The notes below the pieces were generated by a model. That model worked only from the letters and a program-made list of their open reading frames with translations, was not told the origin of the DNA and made no database searches. From assembly GCA_030691545.1 (NCBI GenBank), contig JAUYEE010000058.1, positions 2,041-66,040 on the forward strand: DNA of 64,000 nucleotides, written 5' to 3'. How positions within the stretch are numbered: the first letter of the stretch is position 1; every line of letters begins with the position of its first letter. The stretch is from a bacterium (GTDB lineage Bacteria > Auribacterota > JABMQX01). This document shows positions 10,082 through 15,749 of this stretch, one piece after another. A program made the position numbers and the translations under genes.

Positions 10082-11413
10082 TCACACCTCCAGCTTCCAC
10101 GGTGCCCGGTATTCTCTCCCCACCAGCTTATTCGCCTCCGCGTCGTCGAGCACAACCTCCTTCTCGGCATCCCATTTGATCCTTCGACCAACACGGTACG
10201 CGATGTTGAGAAGATGTCCCGGCACGCTCGAGTAGTGTCCGTTCTCGATTTCGTTCGGAGGCTCCTTTCGCGACTTCACCGCCTCGACGAATGCGCGCTG
10301 ATGCAGCCCGTCTCCCTCGATCCCTCCGATGCGCACTTCATCGAGCATCTTCTTTTCGCCGATCGTCTCGGTAATGATGGCATAACCGCCGCGGTTGAGA
10401 ATCATCGAGCCGTTTGTTCCGTGAAAGATTTTCGCGTTCCAGCGGTTCTCGTAAATGTAACTGTTCGCGCCCGTAAACCGATAGGACATGATGAAACCGG
10501 GGTACTCGACGATCCCGCTCAACGTATCCGGCAGCTCCCGGTTATCGTCTGTCATCAACTTCCCGCCCATTGCCGTCGCTCCCACGGGCTTGTCGCACTT
10601 CATCGCCCAGTGCACGATGTCGTGATGGTGCACCGCCCAGTCCGACTGCCATCCCCCGCCGTAGTGCCAGAACCAATAATGATAGATATAGCGGTTCTGG
10701 TTGTAAGGGACTTTCGGCGACGGACCCAGCCAGAAATCCCAGTCCAGTTCCGGCGGCGGATTCGAGTCCGCGGGATGGCCGAACCCCGGCAACTGCTGGT
10801 CCACATCCCACACCTCCACAAAACCGATTTTCCCCAGCCGCCCGGAGTGAATAATCTTCACCGCGTCCTGGTAATGCGGCGAACTTCGCTGCTGCGTCCC
10901 GATGCAGCCGATTCGTTTGTACTTTCTCGCCGCTTGAACGACTGCGCGTCCTTCTTGAATTGTCAGCGACAGCGGCTTCTCCACGTAAATGTCCTTCCCC
11001 GCCTGGCAGGCGTTGATCGCCGGAAGAGCGTGCCAGTGCCCGTTCGTCGCGACAACTACTGCGTCAATGTCGCTGCGCTCGAGCAACTCCCGGAAGTCCG
11101 CGTACCCTTTCGCCTTCCCGCCGGACACCGCAATCGCCGCCTCGCAATGACGCTTGTTCATGTCGCTGACTGCCGCGATCTCGACATCCGGATGAGTCAT
11201 GAACATCGTCATCAGATACCTCCCGCGACCGCCCGTCCCGACAAATCCAAGAATCACCTTCTCACTCGCACTCGACCGCCTCGCCGGTGCCGGCGCCTCC
11301 GCAGCCTGCGCCGCACTTCGGCCAAGCCTTTCCAGAGTCGCCGCCACCATGCCCACAGCAACTCCCTGTCCCGACTTCTCCAAAAACTCTCTCCTTGTCA
11401 ATCCTTCCTTCAT
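10082..11413 (-). CDS. Tat-exported Gfo/Idh/MocA family oxidoreductase
   Basis: Start MKEGLTRREFLEKSG after GGAGG (twin-arginine). Rossmann GFVGTGGRG; DAVVVATNGHWH, YVEKPL, GTQQRS, LDWDFWLGP. Confidence 0.92.
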   Translation of the reverse strand: MKEGLTRREFLEKSGQGVAVGMVAATLERLGRSAAQAAEAPAPARRSSASEKVILGFVGTGGRGRYLMTMFMTHPDVEIAAVSDMNKRHCEAAIAVSGGKAKGYADFRELLERSDIDAVVVATNGHWHALPAINACQAGKDIYVEKPLSLTIQEGRAVVQAARKYKRIGCIGTQQRSSPHYQDAVKIIHSGRLGKIGFVEVWDVDQQLPGFGHPADSNPPPELDWDFWLGPSPKVPYNQNRYIYHYWFWHYGGGWQSDWAVHHHDIVHWAMKCDKPVGATAMGGKLMTDDNRELPDTLSGIVEYPGFIMSYRFTGANSYIYENRWNAKIFHGTNGSMILNRGGYAIITETIGEKKMLDEVRIGGIEGDGLHQRAFVEAVKSRKEPPNEIENGHYSSVPGHLLNIAYRVGRRIKWDAEKEVVLDDAEANKLVGREYRAPWKLEV

Positions 11414-11926
11414 ACCATACCCTCCTTTTCTTAGTCGTTCCCTCACACGGGAAAGCCGATGCCCCGCCCGAATCATCCTGAGCGATAGGCGGATGTTCGC
11501 TCGGACATGCACGAACGACGATGTCAGTCCTATCGCCCAATGGAGAGCCGTATCGGTTCCTCAAAGGCGGCAGGATACCACGGCAGGCGAGAATCTTCAA
11601 CGACCGCTGACGGCTTGACGGCCACCTTCTTCAGTGGCTCTGGCGGGATCGTCCCATAGGCTCGGCGACACAGCAACGGCGGGTACAAGGGACTTGTGGC
11701 AGCACAGAGCATAGGTGTATAATCGCGTGCCCGAGCCAAAGGACCCGGCTTGACAGCCACGGCAGTTGGACAAGCGGGCTTGAACCGCGCGTTGCCGGTT
11801 GCAGCCCGGTCAGTCAAGCTCGTGGCGGCCCGGATACCGGGGCGTGACGACCGGCCACGTTTGCCGGTCCGGAAAATCGGAGTCGTCCAGTGCAAGAGGT
11901 GCAGATCTCAGCGGAGGCCCAATGAG

Positions 11927-13234
11927 ATGAGCAGGAGACGTTTCTTGACAGACTTCTATGACTCAATACGTCAGCGACAGTATAGGACACTCGCGCAGAC
12001 CCTGTGCGATGAGAAACTGCCGGATACGGCAAAGTCTTTGTATACAGGGCGGTTAAGATTTGATGTTCTGCTCTCGCAGACAGTGGTCTTGACGGATGCC
12101 ATGTTGCTTGACGGAACATTCTTCCTAGATGTGGAACCACGGGAGCTTGCCGACTCACTCGCCCGCCGTGAGGGGGAGGAGATGCCAGTCGAAATCCGAG
12201 CCAGGGCGGAGAACCTGGAACACGCACTCCTGATGTTTGTCAGGTACCCCGAGTTGCCAAACCTGCGGGGATTCATCTTTTCAGGAATCGAAGACGACGA
12301 GCAACGTATAGAGGCGAAGAAGGTCCTGGAAGAAACGCCGGCGTCCGAGCTCAGGTCTTGGAGGGACCTTGGCCGGGTTTTCCGGCGCGCTGGCGTCACC
12401 GCAGCCAACGCTGAAAAGTTGGAGGCTGCCTGGGCTTGCTGGATAGGAGCCCAACGATGCGGCGTCCTAAAGGTGGCGACGTGGCACGGGGATTTCGAAC
12501 TGGACAGGGCCCTGCCACGCCCGGAGACCTTGTCGAGGGGGCTCAGGACTGCCGAGGGCGCATCGCTTGCCCAGAGGGTTTGGGACAGTCGTGGAGACAG
12601 AAGCTCCATCGATGCCGCGCTGTCAGAAGCGAAATTCACGGCAGCGGGGGATCTCTTGAAAGACGTCGCTGCAATTGAGTCCCGCTTTCACCGGAGTTAC
12701 AATACTACGATTGCGCTGCAGCACGAATGTGACAATTACGAGTCGGTTTACGACGCCTCGACAGCGATAATGAGCCGCCGTGAGTTCGTGCGGCTCGGTA
12801 TCGATGATGCCAAGCAGCGACAGGCGCGCTCACCAAGGCCCACGCTCAATCTGCCACCTGGTTTCCTGCTGGCGCTAGGCACGATGCCCAGTGACTGCTT
12901 CCGCACGTTGTTCTGGGAAGGGTACAGACGGGGCCATTTTCAGAAGTGGTGGGAGACCGGAGAATTGGAGGCTCTTCGCAGAGCCCTTGACCCTTTCGTC
13001 AATAAATGTGCGGAGGGCAGTCACCTCCCGGTTAAATGGCGGCTCGCTTCAAGGCTGGTTTCTGCTGGGATAGGCTGCGGCGTCGGCGGCCCCGTTGGGG
13101 CAGTTCTTGGGGTTCTGCTGGAGTATTTTACGATCGAACGCATTGGGGACGTCCGTGGCGCCAGAGCCAGGCGTCTCTCACAGCGCATTTTGCGTATAGC
13201 AGAGGAGCGTCAAACTGATGAGCGCAAACATTAA
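11927..13234 (+). CDS. Hypothetical protein (about 435 aa) with a C-terminal glycine-zipper-like hydrophobic segment
   Basis: Long ORF, probable start MSRRRFLTDF; I recognise no family. Ends ...LVSAGIGCGVGGPVGAVLGVLLEYF...; overlaps the next gene by 17 nt. Confidence 0.75.
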   Translation: MSRRRFLTDFYDSIRQRQYRTLAQTLCDEKLPDTAKSLYTGRLRFDVLLSQTVVLTDAMLLDGTFFLDVEPRELADSLARREGEEMPVEIRARAENLEHALLMFVRYPELPNLRGFIFSGIEDDEQRIEAKKVLEETPASELRSWRDLGRVFRRAGVTAANAEKLEAAWACWIGAQRCGVLKVATWHGDFELDRALPRPETLSRGLRTAEGASLAQRVWDSRGDRSSIDAALSEAKFTAAGDLLKDVAAIESRFHRSYNTTIALQHECDNYESVYDASTAIMSRREFVRLGIDDAKQRQARSPRPTLNLPPGFLLALGTMPSDCFRTLFWEGYRRGHFQKWWETGELEALRRALDPFVNKCAEGSHLPVKWRLASRLVSAGIGCGVGGPVGAVLGVLLEYFTIERIGDVRGARARRLSQRILRIAEERQTDERKH

Positions 13235-13769
13235 GCGGTTAGAAGAGCTACTTGTATACTCCGACCAAGAAAACCCCTGGCTGAAGCTATACTTCGATCG
13301 CGTCGAGTTCTCCGATGGGCGCGTCGGGCGCTATAACCGGATTGTGGAAGCGCAGGGCAAGCAGGGCGTGGCTGTCTTGCCCCTTGCCGGGGCGCACATC
13401 GGCCTGGCACGCCAGTTCCGATACCCTGTGGGAAAAGAGCTATGGGAGATACCACGAGGGTTTGCGGAAAGCGGGCGGCCAGAAGAAGATGCCCTCCGAG
13501 AACTCAGGGAGGAAACGGGGCTTAATGCGCGGGAGCTAGTTGACCTCGGGACAATCCATCCCAATTCGGGAGTACTAGCGTCGGAGGTGCAGATCTTCGC
13601 GGCGATCTGCGACGATTGGGCGCAAGACCGCTCAATCACGGATGGGGAAGTGGCCGAGTTTCGCTGGCTCCCCGTCGAACGGGTCTTGTCCCTCATAAAA
13701 GCCGGCGACATCACGGACGCTTTCACGTTGTGCGCCGTCTTGCGCGCAAAGGAGCGCGGAATAGTGTAG
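13218..13769 (+). CDS. NUDIX hydrolase (ADP-ribose pyrophosphatase-like)
   Basis: GVAVLP...RQFRYPVG..LWEIPRGF...ALRELREETGL and ITDAFTL. Confidence 0.9.
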   Translation: MSANIKRLEELLVYSDQENPWLKLYFDRVEFSDGRVGRYNRIVEAQGKQGVAVLPLAGAHIGLARQFRYPVGKELWEIPRGFAESGRPEEDALRELREETGLNARELVDLGTIHPNSGVLASEVQIFAAICDDWAQDRSITDGEVAEFRWLPVERVLSLIKAGDITDAFTLCAVLRAKERGIV

Positions 13770-14011
13770 GGGGTCTCCCTGCCTCTCCGCGGGGCTTTAG
13801 GTCCAGCTAAGGCACACAGCTGCATGCGTAACTGAAAGGCGACGCCCATCCGAAGCCGCTGACTCAACCTCGTAAGCATTCGCACATCGAAAAGGGCCAA
13901 CCAAGACAAGAGGAACAGAAAGGGCGAACGGAGGTTTAGCCACGAGCAGTACGACATGCTCCCCCGGGCCCTCCGAAACGAAGGACATGACCGACTAACC
14001 GGAAATTCCTT

Positions 14012-14143
14012 GGACATGATTACAGGATGTTCAGCATTGTGGGTCGTGAGTTGCGCTGATGGCCGGTTCCCAATAATCCTGCTTATCCTGTTATCCTGTC
14101 CCCAAGCTACTCCGCGTCTGCGCTCTCCGCGCCCTCTGCGGTT
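14012..14143. repeat. Short dispersed repeats: a CAGGAT/ATCCTG inverted pair plus a CTCTGCG-family arm
   Basis: GGACATGATTACAGGAT (14012-14028) faces ATCCTGCTTATCCTGTTATCCTGTCC (14076-14101). CTCCGCGTCTGCGCTCTCCGCGCCCTCTGCGGTT follows (14110-14143). Confidence 0.65.
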
Positions 14144-14212
14144 GGCCGCGGGCGCGTTTCAGTGGCAGAGCTGTGGACTGCACGGCGGTCGGGGTGACCA
14201 CGGTGGCCACCT

Positions 14213-14279
14213 GTGGCACGGGCGTCTCGCCCGTGGTCAACCCGTGGAACCCTCACATGGACAGGATGCTCATTCCATC
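14213..14279. repeat. GTGG-tagged REP-like palindrome doublet
   Basis: GTGG-CACGGGCG-TCT-CGCCCGTG followed by a degenerate partner CATGGACAGGATGCTCATTCCATC. Confidence 0.6.
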
Positions 14280-14311
14280 AAAGTACGACAGCAGAGCTGT
14301 GGTTTCTCTCC

Positions 14312-14340
14312 TTGACAAAATCATGGCCATGCCGTATAAT
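14312..14340 (+). promoter_or_regulatory. Perfect consensus sigma70 promoter
   Basis: TTGACA (14312-14317), 17-nt spacer, TATAAT (14335-14340). Confidence 0.8.
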
Positions 14341-14672
14341 CCTGTCAAAAAGAGGACCAGCCCAACGATCCCTTCGTGGAGAACAGAATGCACTTTGGGG
14401 GACCACCTCTCGCACAATTTCGGCCGTTCTTGCACCACTATGTCCTTTTCCTGCGCGCACGCGCCACGCCACGCAGGCAAGAAAAGCCCGGTACTGGGCC
14501 TTTTCCTCAATCGGCGGATTTCAACCTATCTCCTTCTCGAATCGTAGATTGTCGCCAGTTTCCACCTCCCAAAAAGGCCCAGAAAGGCCCGCTTTTTCGC
14601 CCCGTGGCCTTTTTATTACGCGCGCACAGTGACAACGGCGTGTCTCCCGGCCCCAACGCAATCACTCCGGTG

Positions 14673-14681
14673 TGCTATAAT
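14673..14681 (+). promoter_or_regulatory. Extended -10 promoter for the TolB-like gene
   Basis: TGcTATAAT, then GAGGAGG RBS at 14701 and ATG at 14718. Confidence 0.6.
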
Positions 14682-14717
14682 CGGGGGTGCCTGACGTCAA
14701 GAGGAGGCTTTTGTGAA

Positions 14718-15749
14718 ATGAAGATGCTCAAACGAACGATGCACCTCATCAACGTGCTGGCCATTGCACTCTGCTTCGCCAGCGTCTCATCCGCTGCATC
14801 CAACGTGTCCATGCCCAGTCAGACAGTGGCCGAAGCGCAGCTTCGCGCGGAACTGAGGGCCTATCCACACAAGATTCTTTTCGCCAGTTACCTCGATGGG
14901 AACTGGGAAATCTGCATGATGAATGCTGATGGGACTGGCGTAAGAAATATCTCTCGTCACCCGTCCAACGACGTGATGCCTCACGCCTCCCCCGACGGGA
15001 CGACGATTCTTTTCGGTTCAGATCGCGTGGGGAGGCAGGACGAGGGTCTCTGGCCCATTGGTTCCCAGGGGCGGGGCATTTTCGTCATGAACCTCGACGG
15101 GACGAACGCCCAACTCGTCGCCATTGGCGAAGAAGCATGTTGGGCGCCCGACGGCAGACAGATTTGTTTTCTCCAGGACGGCTGGCTGATCGTGCGCGAC
15201 ATCACGAGCGGAAGGGAGCAGAGAGTCGGCGATTTCTGGTCGCAGGTCGAGACGCCGTGCTGGTCGCCGGACGGCAGAAGCATCGCCCTGACCGCGGACA
15301 TGCTCGGCGGGCACAACGGGCACATCTTTGACCTGATAACAGGTCGCCTCCGACGATATGCGTATGGCGTCGGGACGAACTGCCGCCCCGACTTCTCGGC
15401 GGATGGCAAAGCCATCGCTTTTTGCAGTCACTACGCGGGCGGCGTGATGCTCTGGACGGCTCAGGTCGCCGACCCGCGGCGAACGCTCTGGCGGTTGACG
15501 TATCGCCCGGGATTCAACTACTACCCGGACTGGTCGCCCGACAACCGGTTCATCGTCTATAGCCACGGCCCGAGAAACGATTCGTATGAGTTCAGCCCCG
15601 GACAATGGCAGATTTACATGATGACTCCGTTAGGGGAGAACGACGGGCCGAGAATCCATCTCACCTCGTGGGGCTCCAACCGCGATCCGGATTGGCTGCC
15701 CGTTGCCACGGTGGGGCAGCCGATGAGGACGGAGGGCCGCCGCCCGTGA
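14718..15749 (+). CDS. Secreted TolB-like beta-propeller (PD40 repeats)
   Basis: Signal peptide MKMLKRTMHLINVLAIALCFASVSSA; repeated PxWSPDG/ASPDG units. The track start at 14376 is probably over-extended. Confidence 0.85.
   Translation: MKMLKRTMHLINVLAIALCFASVSSAASNVSMPSQTVAEAQLRAELRAYPHKILFASYLDGNWEICMMNADGTGVRNISRHPSNDVMPHASPDGTTILFGSDRVGRQDEGLWPIGSQGRGIFVMNLDGTNAQLVAIGEEACWAPDGRQICFLQDGWLIVRDITSGREQRVGDFWSQVETPCWSPDGRSIALTADMLGGHNGHIFDLITGRLRRYAYGVGTNCRPDFSADGKAIAFCSHYAGGVMLWTAQVADPRRTLWRLTYRPGFNYYPDWSPDNRFIVYSHGPRNDSYEFSPGQWQIYMMTPLGENDGPRIHLTSWGSNRDPDWLPVATVGQPMRTEGRRP

What the first reader, a model, noticed from the sequence alone, without database searches (positions are those of the whole stretch)
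11927..13769. Coupled unknown protein + atypical NUDIX: candidate two-gene nucleotide-linked conflict or defence module
Seen: a roughly 435-aa protein with no family I recognise and a terminal Gly-zipper-like hydrophobic hairpin overlaps a NUDIX gene by 17 nt. The Nudix box is one residue short and lacks the first Glu (G-FAESG-RPEEDAL-RELREETG vs Gx5Ex7REUxEExGU). The pair sits between unrelated carbohydrate and envelope genes, with dispersed repeats at 14.0-14.3 kb. Established: NUDIX domains occur as sensors or signal erasers in nucleotide-signalling conflict systems, and Gly zippers occur in pore-forming proteins. Inference: an effector plus regulator, or an enzyme plus its detoxifier.
Basis: partly seen in the sequence, partly recalled or inferred. 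Interest (0 to 1): 0.65.

Follow-up and report, generated by a model that had tools for sequence, protein, structure and literature searches.

The report
Mobile membrane-protein plus NUDIX gene cassette
Two overlapping genes, one for an unannotated membrane-anchored protein with no recognisable relatives of known structure and one for a dedicated ADP-ribose-type NUDIX hydrolase, form a self-contained cassette that moves between distant bacteria and looks like an untested anti-phage or toxin-antitoxin-like system.

Summary
A 435-aa ORF (11927-13234) overlaps a 183-aa NUDIX gene (13218-13769) by 17 nt. The Nudix box is one residue short and lacks the first Glu. The large protein ends in a glycine zipper.

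The large protein belongs to a real but unannotated family: 271 representative clusters, no Pfam, NCBIfam, PADLOC or PHROG match, "hypothetical protein" in RefSeq. A confident AlphaFold model (pLDDT 87, pTM 0.87) has no Foldseek match in PDB or BFVD.

- **Linkage:** in 24 of 26 distinct loci from at least five phyla-level groups, the same special NUDIX clade lies directly beside it. One lineage fuses the two genes. The two proteins co-diverge (Mantel r = 0.78).
- **Distribution:** the pair is patchy (2/79, 1/27 and 5/81 genomes). In Microbacterium it is a precise 1.6-kb insertion between wzm and wzt.
- **Domain swaps:** rare relatives replace the hydrophobic tail with N-terminal TIR or PNP nucleosidase domains.
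- **Context:** one copy sits in an integrase-borne island with ThsB-TIR, Lit peptidase and AbiTii.

Best reading (about 50%): a two-gene abortive-infection or toxin-antitoxin-like conflict module made of a sensor/switch domain, a swappable effector and an obligatory NUDIX regulator. Function is untested, and most copies are not in defence islands.

The parts
11696..11723 (+). promoter-like site (GTGGCA-16-TATAAT) about 200 nt upstream of the large gene
   Evidence: a consensus match only, not shown to be functional
11913..11917 (+). Shine-Dalgarno GGAGG, 9 nt before the ATG of the large gene
   Evidence: read from the sequence
11927..13234 (+). large gene, 435 aa (P0001): unannotated family, core domain plus hydrophobic glycine-zipper tail plus basic C-terminal helix
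   Evidence: 271 representative clusters at E<=1e-3; AF2 pLDDT 87.3, pTM 0.87
11927..13021 (+). core domain, residues 1-365: an N-terminal alpha/beta part (strands 5-8, 52-56, 88-92, 182-185) then a helical part. Residues conserved in both family branches: D12, S13, Q16, R44, T56-D57, D62-G63, W169, R225, Y258. R93 is invariant in A1 only
   Evidence: hhalign 99.8% between the two branches; no PDB or BFVD fold match
13055..13129 (+). hydrophobic segment L377-F401 holding the glycine zipper S379/G383/G387/G391/G395 (13061-13111); predicted membrane anchor or hairpin
   Evidence: Actinobacterial homologues have two clear hydrophobic segments here (Kyte-Doolittle 2.1-2.6). AF2 confidence is low for residues 382-390
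13151..13228 (+). conserved basic C-terminal helix (residues 409-434, motif QRIxxIAxER)
13218..13234 (+). 17-nt overlap of the two genes, suggesting translational coupling
   Evidence: The same overlapping or abutting arrangement is seen in L001, L005, L009-L012, L014-L018, L020, L021, L023, L024, L026, L027 and L031
13218..13769 (+). partner NUDIX gene, 183 aa (P0002), ADP-ribose-pyrophosphatase-like, a clade found only with the core gene
   Evidence: best PDB match 2yvm, T. thermophilus MutT/nudix protein, E = 4e-16; 281 bits against at most 100 bits for every other NUDIX in 79 genomes of the phylum
13458..13523 (+). Nudix box G81-L102, one residue short, R87 in place of the first Glu; the metal-binding helix R94-E95-x2-E98-E99 is intact

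Best explanation
The two genes form one self-contained, horizontally mobile conflict module of the abortive-infection or toxin-antitoxin type.

Shown:
- The large protein and a dedicated NUDIX clade are inherited, lost and inserted together, and they co-diverge.
- One lineage fuses them into a single protein.
- The NUDIX keeps its catalytic Glu residues.
- The core domain is combined either with a C-terminal hydrophobic glycine-zipper/2-TM tail (most members, including this one) or with N-terminal TIR or PNP-nucleosidase domains, and not with both.

Inferred mechanism:
- The 365-residue core is a cytoplasmic switch or sensor. Its invariant Asp/Arg/Trp/Tyr residues lie at the C-terminal ends of the parallel strands and probably form a nucleotide-binding pocket.
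- On activation the core drives its attached effector. In this window the effector is the glycine-zipper tail, which would oligomerise and damage the membrane. Elsewhere it is NAD+ or nucleotide destruction by TIR or PNP.
- The ADP-ribose-type NUDIX, made in step with the core by translational coupling, acts as the built-in regulator. It hydrolyses the activating NDP-X compound (ADP-ribose or a relative) and keeps the module off until infection or stress raises that compound or disables the NUDIX.
For: Linkage. A same-clade NUDIX lies directly beside the core gene in 24 of 26 distinct loci. These come from the window's phylum, Actinomycetota (Nocardioides, Microbacterium, Agromyces, Amnibacterium), a Polyangiaceae MAG, a Magnetospirillum MAG, a phycobilisome-bearing contig and other metagenome contigs. 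The two exceptions are degenerate copies (L013, L032). The natural fusion P0019 (core plus NUDIX) is seen on several independent contigs.

Co-divergence. Mantel r = 0.78, 0 of 5000 permutations reached it. The core diverges faster (mean identity 24% against 38%).

Dedicated NUDIX. It scores 281 bits in this genome. Every other NUDIX in 79 genomes of the phylum, including this genome's own second ADPRase-like gene, scores at most 100 bits. E95, E98, E99 and E144 are invariant in the partners.

Effector swapping. TIR_2 fusions (P0045, P0064) and a PNP_UDP_1 fusion (P0076) exist. All 5 members with N-terminal extensions of at least 150 aa lack the hydrophobic tail, against 5 of 114 others (Fisher p = 1.4e-6). 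The TIR-fused member keeps the same NUDIX clade next door. TIR and PNPase are recognised nucleotide-directed effector domains of prokaryotic conflict systems (PMC7159879, read).

Mobility. The pair is found in 2 of 79, 1 of 27 and 5 of 81 genomes. In Microbacterium it is a precise 1.6-kb indel between wzm and wzt with about 22 nt of junction duplicated. Flank proteins are 85-94% identical while cassette proteins are 50-57% identical. G130 carries it at another site. Transposases or an integrase flank L020, L025 and L003.

Defence context. In L003 the pair lies among ThsB_TIR, DUF5677, Peptidase_U49 (Lit), AbiTii and an integrase. A HepT/MNT pair lies beside L035.
Against: - There is no experiment, and the core has no detectable homology to any sensor or effector family.
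- Most neighbourhoods, this window included, are ordinary metabolic or envelope genes. A census of 126 flanking ORFs gave no enrichment of known defence genes beyond kinases, two integrases and a few transposases.
- No relative was found in IMG/VR viral contigs.
- The two-gene version contains no signal generator, so the activating ligand is hypothetical.
- AlphaFold did not dock the NUDIX on the core in the natural fusion (pTM 0.62, disordered linker).
- The hydrophobic tail of P0001 is only moderately hydrophobic and is modelled with low confidence.
- TIR and PNP fusions are about 2% of representatives, and two of them (P0064, P0076) are close relatives, so the exclusivity statistic overstates independence.
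Confidence: 0.5

Rival explanations
1. Enzyme plus detoxifier (a classical toxin-antitoxin). The core is itself an enzyme of a new fold that makes or transfers a toxic NDP-X or ADP-ribose-type product at the membrane. The NUDIX is the antitoxin that destroys that product. Any phage defence would be secondary to an addiction function.
For: - The genes are overlapping and translationally coupled, with strict co-inheritance and a natural fusion.
- The invariant polar residues (D12, S13, Q16, R44, D57, D62, R93, R225, Y258) sit at strand ends, as in Rossmann-like active sites.
- The NUDIX is catalytically intact.
- The logic resembles DarT/DarG, where an ADP-ribose-removing enzyme neutralises its partner (my own knowledge).
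Against: - If the core were the toxic enzyme, added TIR or PNP domains and the loss of the membrane tail in those fusions would be hard to explain.
- No similarity to any transferase or NADase fold was found.
Confidence: 0.2
2. The NUDIX is the effector. On a signal from the membrane-anchored core (the sensor), it depletes an essential nucleotide such as NAD+, ADP-ribose or dinucleoside polyphosphates, or blocks phage NAD+ rebuilding from ADP-ribose. TIR and PNP in the fused forms add a second depletion step.
For: - The NUDIX is the one constant enzymatic part, and its catalytic residues are conserved.
- A single-gene NUDIX integron cassette (Brc167) is among the cassettes reported from a functional phage-defence screen (bioRxiv 10.1101/2024.07.02.601719, read).
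- Phage NARP1 rebuilds NAD+ from ADP-ribose (abstracts listed). A TIR plus ADP-ribose-degrading pair would make NAD+ loss irreversible (inference).
Against: - It does not explain why the hydrophobic tail and the TIR/PNP domains are mutually exclusive if neither is the effector.
- ADPRase-type NUDIX enzymes are normally constitutive housekeeping hydrolases, and the genome already has one.
Confidence: 0.12
3. A housekeeping accessory of envelope or nucleotide-sugar metabolism. A membrane-anchored protein and an NDP-sugar/ADP-ribose hydrolase tune precursor supply for cell-wall polysaccharide or carbohydrate pathways. There is no conflict role.
For: - In Microbacterium the pair sits inside the glf-wzm-wzt-GT2-glfT2 cell-wall polysaccharide cluster and keeps the operon's translational coupling.
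- In this window it lies among carbohydrate-active genes.
- The NUDIX is nearest to the ADP-sugar and GDP-mannose hydrolase families.
Against: - Only 5 of 81 Microbacterium species have it, and the operon is intact without it.
- Neighbours elsewhere are unrelated.
- The cassette proteins diverge far faster than the flanks.
- TIR and PNP fusions and the L003 island do not fit a biosynthetic role.
Confidence: 0.1

Closest known systems
ADP-ribose-pyrophosphatase-type NUDIX hydrolases (T. thermophilus MutT/nudix protein PDB 2yvm; NudE; NudF/YffH)
   Same: - The partner protein aligns over its full length (E = 4e-16 to 2yvm; NudE model positions 29-179).
- It has the N-terminal beta domain, the catalytic helix REx2EE and the downstream Pro-x-Ser-Gly region.
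   Different: - It scores far below every NCBIfam equivalog cut-off: 46 against 169 bits for NudE, and 21 against 80 for TIGR00052.
- It forms its own clade, marked by E-x-P-R-G, which in this subclade has a box one residue short without the first Glu.
- It is found only beside the core gene.
Nucleotide-signal-gated membrane effectors of CBASS, Pycsar and Thoeris-like systems (for example 2TM SLATT proteins, Cap15-type and PycTM effectors)
   Same: - A cytoplasmic domain is joined to a short hydrophobic hairpin.
- Alternative members of the same system family use TIR or nucleosidase effectors instead.
- They are small mobile operons (SLATT prediction quoted from PMC7159879).
   Different: - There is no cyclase, TIR or other signal generator in the two-gene form.
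- The core matches no SLATT, SAVED, SLOG, CARF, Macro or cNMP model (Pfam and PADLOC: no hits).
- The hydrophobic part is C-terminal.
- A NUDIX is obligatory.
DarT/DarG-type toxin-antitoxin pairs with an ADP-ribose-processing antitoxin
   Same: A two-gene coupled operon in which the constant partner is an enzyme acting on ADP-ribose-type chemistry. Both are sporadic and mobile, and DarT/DarG is sometimes defensive. The comparison rests on my own knowledge of DarTG and on abstracts listed.
   Different: - The partner here is a NUDIX pyrophosphatase, not a macrodomain.
- The large protein has no ART fold match.
- It carries a membrane tail.
Conflict systems with N-terminal TIR or PNPase effector domains (Kaur, Burroughs, Iyer and Aravind, eLife 2020, PMC7159879)
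   Same: - P0045, P0064 and P0076 have exactly this effector-first architecture.
- The host range is similar: actinobacteria, myxobacteria, cyanobacteria.
   Different: - In those systems the domain after the effector is an NTPase or repeat sensor.
- Here it is the new core domain, with no P-loop and with an obligatory NUDIX neighbour.
Brc167, a single-gene NUDIX integron cassette reported from a phage-defence screen (bioRxiv 10.1101/2024.07.02.601719)
   Same: A NUDIX hydrolase carried on a mobile cassette in a defence context.
   Different: It is a single gene and has no core partner. Its relatedness to the partner clade was not tested.

Membership tests
NUDIX superfamily (PF00293) | Pfam NUDIX domain above the gathering score | tested here: met
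   P0002 scores 50.8 bits against a cut-off of 21.1, E = 2.2e-13
NUDIX superfamily (PF00293) | Full 23-residue Nudix box GX5EX7REUXEEXGU | tested here: not met
   G81-L102 has 22 residues, with R87 at the GX5E position. REx2EE-x-G-U is intact. More distant partners (L031, L003, L017) keep the canonical box
ADP-ribose pyrophosphatase / NudE / YffH equivalogs (NCBIfam NF008736, TIGR00052) | Score above the curated equivalog or subfamily cut-off | tested here: not met
   46.3 against 169 bits (NudE); 20.6 against 79.55 bits (TIGR00052). The protein is related to these families but is not a member.
Known or candidate defence systems in PADLOC-DB v2 | An HMM match of the system's proteins | tested here: not met
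   P0001 has no hit. P0002 has only a generic NUDIX-level hit to PDC-S07, 21.6 bits
Glycine-zipper membrane families (PF13441 Gly-zipper_YMGG, PF13488 Gly-zipper_Omp) | A Pfam match; a GxxxGxxxG motif in a hydrophobic segment | tested here: inconclusive
   The motif is present in P0001. There is no Pfam match for P0001, and each model gets one marginal member hit among the 74 scanned (E about 1e-3)
2TM SLATT and other nucleotide-gated TM effectors | Sequence or fold membership in the SLATT, SAVED, SLOG or Macro families | tested here: not met
   No Pfam hit in any of 74 members. No Foldseek hit at E<=1e-3 in PDB or BFVD
Type II toxin-antitoxin system | Coupled two-gene operon, co-inherited and sporadic | tested here: met
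Type II toxin-antitoxin system | One product is toxic and is neutralised by the other | not testable with these tools
   This needs expression tests.
Anti-phage defence system (operational definition) | Enrichment next to known defence genes or mobile elements | tested here: inconclusive
   Clear in L003. Partial in L035, L020 and L025. Absent in the window and most other loci. The sample of about 25 loci has no background model.
Anti-phage defence system (operational definition) | Protects a host against phage | not testable with these tools
   Experiment needed.

The most novel reading that the evidence does not exclude
The core is a nucleotide receptor of a previously unseen fold that detects ADP-ribose-type breakdown products of NAD+. 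These products would be made by phage enzymes or by the cell's other NADase defences. The receptor then opens a glycine-zipper pore, or fires a fused TIR or PNP domain. An obligatory ADPRase-type NUDIX acts as the built-in signal eraser that sets the threshold. This would be a generator-less, second-line guard of the NAD+/ADP-ribose pool, and the first defence family in which a NUDIX is a fixed subunit.
Probability: 0.18. Interest if true: 0.85.

Novelty: new variant of a known kind. Interest (0 to 1): 0.68.

Why it matters
If the pair is a conflict module, three things follow.

- It adds a new protein fold and family to prokaryotic immunity: 271 clusters at 50% identity, unannotated everywhere I looked.
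- It gives a first case where an ADP-ribose-type NUDIX is an obligatory partner rather than an occasional accessory.
- It offers a compact two-gene system, about 1.85 kb, for asking how nucleotide hydrolases set thresholds for suicide effectors. That question also bears on plant TIR/NUDT signalling and on phage NAD+-rebuilding pathways.

The Microbacterium case also shows a tidy way in which a cassette slips between two translationally coupled genes without breaking the operon. If the pair is only an addiction module or a metabolic accessory, it is still a well-defined unannotated family that deserves a name and a profile.

Tried and rejected
1. My own artefact. The query L017:5650-7002 began 258 nt upstream of the true ATG. 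Its first 86 or so residues were a wrong-frame reading of the conserved wzm gene, which gave a false "61 of 81 Microbacterium genomes". Locus comparison exposed the error. A clean query gave 5 of 81, plus one marginal hit at E = 2.8e-4. The idea that the gene is near-core in Microbacterium is rejected.
2. The search for homologous proteins (word index) found only 2-3 relatives. The full HMMER scan was needed.
A 7-sequence alignment worked. The viral-contig scan found no relative.
4. Fold and profile searches for the core found nothing below E = 0.01: PDB sequences, Foldseek against PDB and against BFVD. Weak hits to EXO1 and XRN-type nucleases and to Rossmann enzymes (E = 2-7, TM about 0.12-0.15) were judged to be noise. 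I noted a loose R-S-E (ADP-ribosyltransferase-like) pattern of R93, S119 and E272, but dropped it because S119 and E272 are not conserved across the wider family.
5. AlphaFold of the natural fusion P0019 was meant to show how the NUDIX docks. Both domains were confident, but their relative placement was not (pTM 0.62).
6. An empty-site comparison for the window itself failed. Relatives G027-G030 lack the pair, but synteny breaks right after the GFO gene, so no clean insertion boundary can be drawn.
7. Rfam found nothing in 11400-14800. No tRNA lies in 1-30000.
8. Over-long ORFs in high-GC loci looked like N-terminal extensions but have no Pfam domain, so they are ORF-calling artefacts.
9. The PADLOC "PD-T4-6", "mad6" and "PglW" hits among neighbours all trace to two protein-kinase genes and are not evidence of those systems.
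11. The search of earlier findings returned nothing on this family.
Full report
**1. What is in the window.**

On the + strand an ORF of 435 codons runs from 11927 to 13234. GGAGG lies 9 nt before its ATG. A public gene call starts 18 nt later at a TTG (P0003), but that would remove Arg5-Phe6, which are conserved in relatives.

A second ORF of 183 codons runs from 13218 to 13769. It has its own GAGGAG and overlaps the first gene by 17 nt. Composition is the same as the surroundings.

The flanks are a GH38 mannosidase-like gene and a GFO/IDH/MocA oxidoreductase on one side. On the other side are a 950-nt gene-free spacer, then PD40, membrane, HAD and large glycosidase genes. The window is contig C160 of a 5.9-Mb, 358-contig assembly of an unnamed organism from a small phylum, of which 79 species genomes are held.

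**2. The small protein.**

It is a NUDIX hydrolase (PF00293, E = 2e-13). Its nearest solved and curated relatives are ADP-ribose and ADP-sugar pyrophosphatases: PDB 2yvm at E = 4e-16, plus NudE, NudF/YffH and NudK. All scores are far below the curated equivalog cut-offs.

G81-L102 has 22 residues instead of 23, and Arg87 stands where the first Glu should be. The metal-binding helix Arg94-Glu95-x2-Glu98-Glu99 is intact. Together with Glu144, these Glu residues are invariant in 17 partner proteins.

The short box is a trait of the subclade that holds this window. More distant partners (L031, L003, L017) keep the canonical GX5E. The clade signature is Glu-x-Pro-Arg-Gly.

**3. The large protein.**

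- No Pfam, NCBIfam, PADLOC or PHROG model matches it or any of 74 relatives.
- RefSeq calls its relatives "hypothetical protein".
- It is nevertheless a real family. A full HMMER scan of 1.84 billion representatives gave 271 clusters at E<=1e-3 and 45 at E<=1e-30.
- With a 74-sequence alignment AlphaFold gave a confident model: mean pLDDT 87.3, pTM 0.87.
- The model has an N-terminal alpha/beta part with short parallel strands, a helical second half up to about residue 365, a low-confidence hydrophobic glycine-rich stretch and a final basic helix.
- Foldseek found no match at E<=1e-3 in PDB or BFVD. A family profile found nothing in PDB sequences. No AlphaFold-DB library was available, so I can say only that no solved or viral relative exists, not that the fold is new.
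- Residues conserved in both family branches are Asp12, Ser13, Gln16, Arg44, Thr56-Asp57, Asp62-Gly63, Trp169, Arg225 and Tyr258. Arg93 is invariant in the main alignment only.
- Several of these sit at the C-terminal ends of strands, where Rossmann-like proteins bind ligands. This last point is inference.

**4. The tail.**

P0001 has the zipper Ser379-Gly383-Gly387-Gly391-Gly395 inside Leu377-Phe401. Across the family the last 100 residues carry GxxxGxxxG in 41 of 119 members, against 9 of 119 in the rest of the protein. Glycine content doubles in the tail.

The actinobacterial branch is a full-length homologue by hhalign (99.8%, E = 1e-28). It has two clearly hydrophobic segments at the same place (Kyte-Doolittle 2.1-2.6). 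A membrane anchor or hairpin is therefore a family feature. Pore formation is not shown.

**5. The two genes are one unit.**

I collected loci from genome, metagenome and assembly collections. I scored them with profiles of both proteins.

- Of 26 distinct loci with enough flanking DNA, 23 have the partner-clade NUDIX immediately downstream, usually overlapping or abutting.
- One, the TIR-fused member L035, has it immediately upstream.
- Two are degenerate. L013 keeps a 183-residue fragment of the core. L032 loses the NUDIX after about 50 codons, where the contig departs from its near-identical twin L033.
- One lineage fuses core and NUDIX into a 643-residue protein seen on several independent contigs.
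- Pairwise identities of cores and of their NUDIX partners co-vary (Mantel r = 0.78, 0 of 5000 permutations). The core diverges faster.
- In the window's phylum the partner NUDIX scores 281 bits in this genome only. Every other NUDIX, including a second ADPRase-like gene in the same genome, scores at most 100 bits.
- No third gene is conserved.

**6. It is accessory and mobile.**

The core is present in 2 of 79 genomes of the phylum and in none of four same-family genomes. It is present in 1 of 27 Nocardioides species and in 5 of 81 Microbacterium species.

An earlier figure of 61 of 81 was my own artefact and is withdrawn. The query began upstream of the true start, and its first 86 or so residues were a wrong-frame reading of the neighbouring wzm gene.

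That mistake led to the cleanest evidence. In most Microbacterium species glf, wzm, wzt, a GT2 gene and glfT2 are contiguous. In three loci (L016, L017, L018) the core-NUDIX pair, about 1.6 kb, lies exactly between wzm and wzt. About 22 nt of the junction (AAGGAGCTGTGATGTCCGCGGC in L018) is present on both sides, so every gene stays translationally coupled.

Flank proteins are 85-94% identical between species, while the cassette proteins are only 50-57% identical. A further species (G130) carries the pair at an unrelated site. Elsewhere transposases (L020, L025) or an integrase (L003) lie next to it.

For the window itself no empty site could be drawn, because synteny with relatives ends at the GFO gene.

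**7. Signs of a conflict function.**

- Three representatives carry classical nucleotide-directed effector domains in front of the core: TIR_2 in P0045 (a Magnetospirillum MAG), TIR/SEFIR in P0064, and PNP_UDP_1 in P0076.
- All five members with long N-terminal extensions lack the hydrophobic tail, against 5 of 114 others (Fisher p = 1.4e-6). The five are not all independent.
- The TIR-fused member keeps the same NUDIX clade next door and lies near a HepT/MNT pair.
- In L003 the pair lies between ThsB_TIR and DUF5677 genes on one side and Peptidase_U49 (Lit), AbiTii, an integrase and an excisionase-type HTH on the other.
- TIR and PNPase are listed as nucleotide-related effectors of prokaryotic conflict systems, and 2TM proteins as predicted nucleotide-gated pores, in PMC7159879.

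**8. Signs against.**

- Most copies, including this one, are not in recognisable defence islands.
- No relative was found on viral contigs.
- The two-gene form has no signal generator.
- AlphaFold did not place the NUDIX on the core in the natural fusion (pTM 0.62, disordered linker 376-453).
- Nothing here is experimental.

**9. Mechanism.**

My best reading (about 0.5) is a sensor or switch core with a swappable effector, here the glycine-zipper tail. A catalytically active ADP-ribose-type NUDIX is made in step with it and keeps it off by removing an activating NDP-X compound.

The rivals are these:
- The core is itself a toxic enzyme and the NUDIX is its detoxifying antitoxin (0.2).
- The NUDIX is the nucleotide-depleting effector and the core is its sensor (0.12).
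- The pair is an envelope or nucleotide-sugar accessory (0.1). This is suggested by the Microbacterium location but weakened by the 5-of-81 distribution and the TIR/PNP fusions.

**10. Comparison and novelty.**

The NUDIX is a divergent offshoot of ADPRase-type enzymes and is not a member of any curated equivalog. The core belongs to no described family that I could test. The overall logic resembles nucleotide-gated membrane effectors and ADP-ribose-linked toxin-antitoxin pairs, but it lacks their defining proteins.

Six literature searches of the held library and four papers read turned up no description of this pair. The nearest item is a single-gene NUDIX integron cassette (Brc167) among those reported from a functional phage-defence screen. 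The Burroughs et al. 2015 NAR survey was not in the searchable library, so prior mention there cannot be excluded.

I rate it a new variant of a known kind of system, with interest 0.68.

Noticed in passing
window 13770-14720: A gene-free spacer of about 950 nt after the NUDIX gene. It holds three motifs of about 30 nt (around 14073-14102, 14113-14146 and 14210-14240) that recur at 19 or more other sites in this genome, and one of them also in relative G027. It also holds a perfect sigma-70 consensus (TTGACA-17-TATAAT) at 14312-14340. There is no Rfam match. The motifs look like genome-wide REP-type repeats and are not part of the cassette.
   Followed up: partly
window 21541-26549: Two adjacent paralogous secreted proteins (776 and 912 aa) share their first 300 or so residues. 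The second has a long Gly/Ala-rich ATVAGGxxNxAS-type repeat array and a C-terminal tail-fibre-like end. This explains the G+C spike (0.657) and AT skew at 24-26 kb.
   Followed up: no
window 10082-11512 and genomes G027-G030: The TAT-signal GFO/IDH/MocA oxidoreductase next to the pair belongs to a very large paralogue set: 24-34 matches at E<=1e-40 in each of four same-family genomes.
   Followed up: no
L035 669-1358: Directly upstream of the NUDIX and TIR-core genes of the Magnetospirillum MAG lies a 229-aa gene that reads like an orotate-phosphoribosyltransferase-type PRTase (VLVEDLASDG motif; my reading, not scanned). It could be housekeeping pyrE or a third component of that variant.
   Followed up: no
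L003 1-18576: An integrase-borne island carries ThsB_TIR, DUF5677, the core/NUDIX pair (here separated by a small antisense ORF), Peptidase_U49 (Lit-like), AbiTii and several unannotated genes, including proteins of 577 and 1053 aa with no Pfam hit. It is a possible source of further unknown defence genes.
   Followed up: no
L010 5320-7386 (P0050, Polyangiaceae MAG): This member has a 221-residue N-terminal extension with no Pfam match and lacks the hydrophobic tail. The extension may be a further, unrecognised effector domain.
   Followed up: no
L039 6100-8106 (relative G029, beyond the GFO orthologue): About 2 kb without any ORF of 100 aa or more, at the place where the window carries the cassette. 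The contig ends there, so nothing can be concluded.
   Followed up: no
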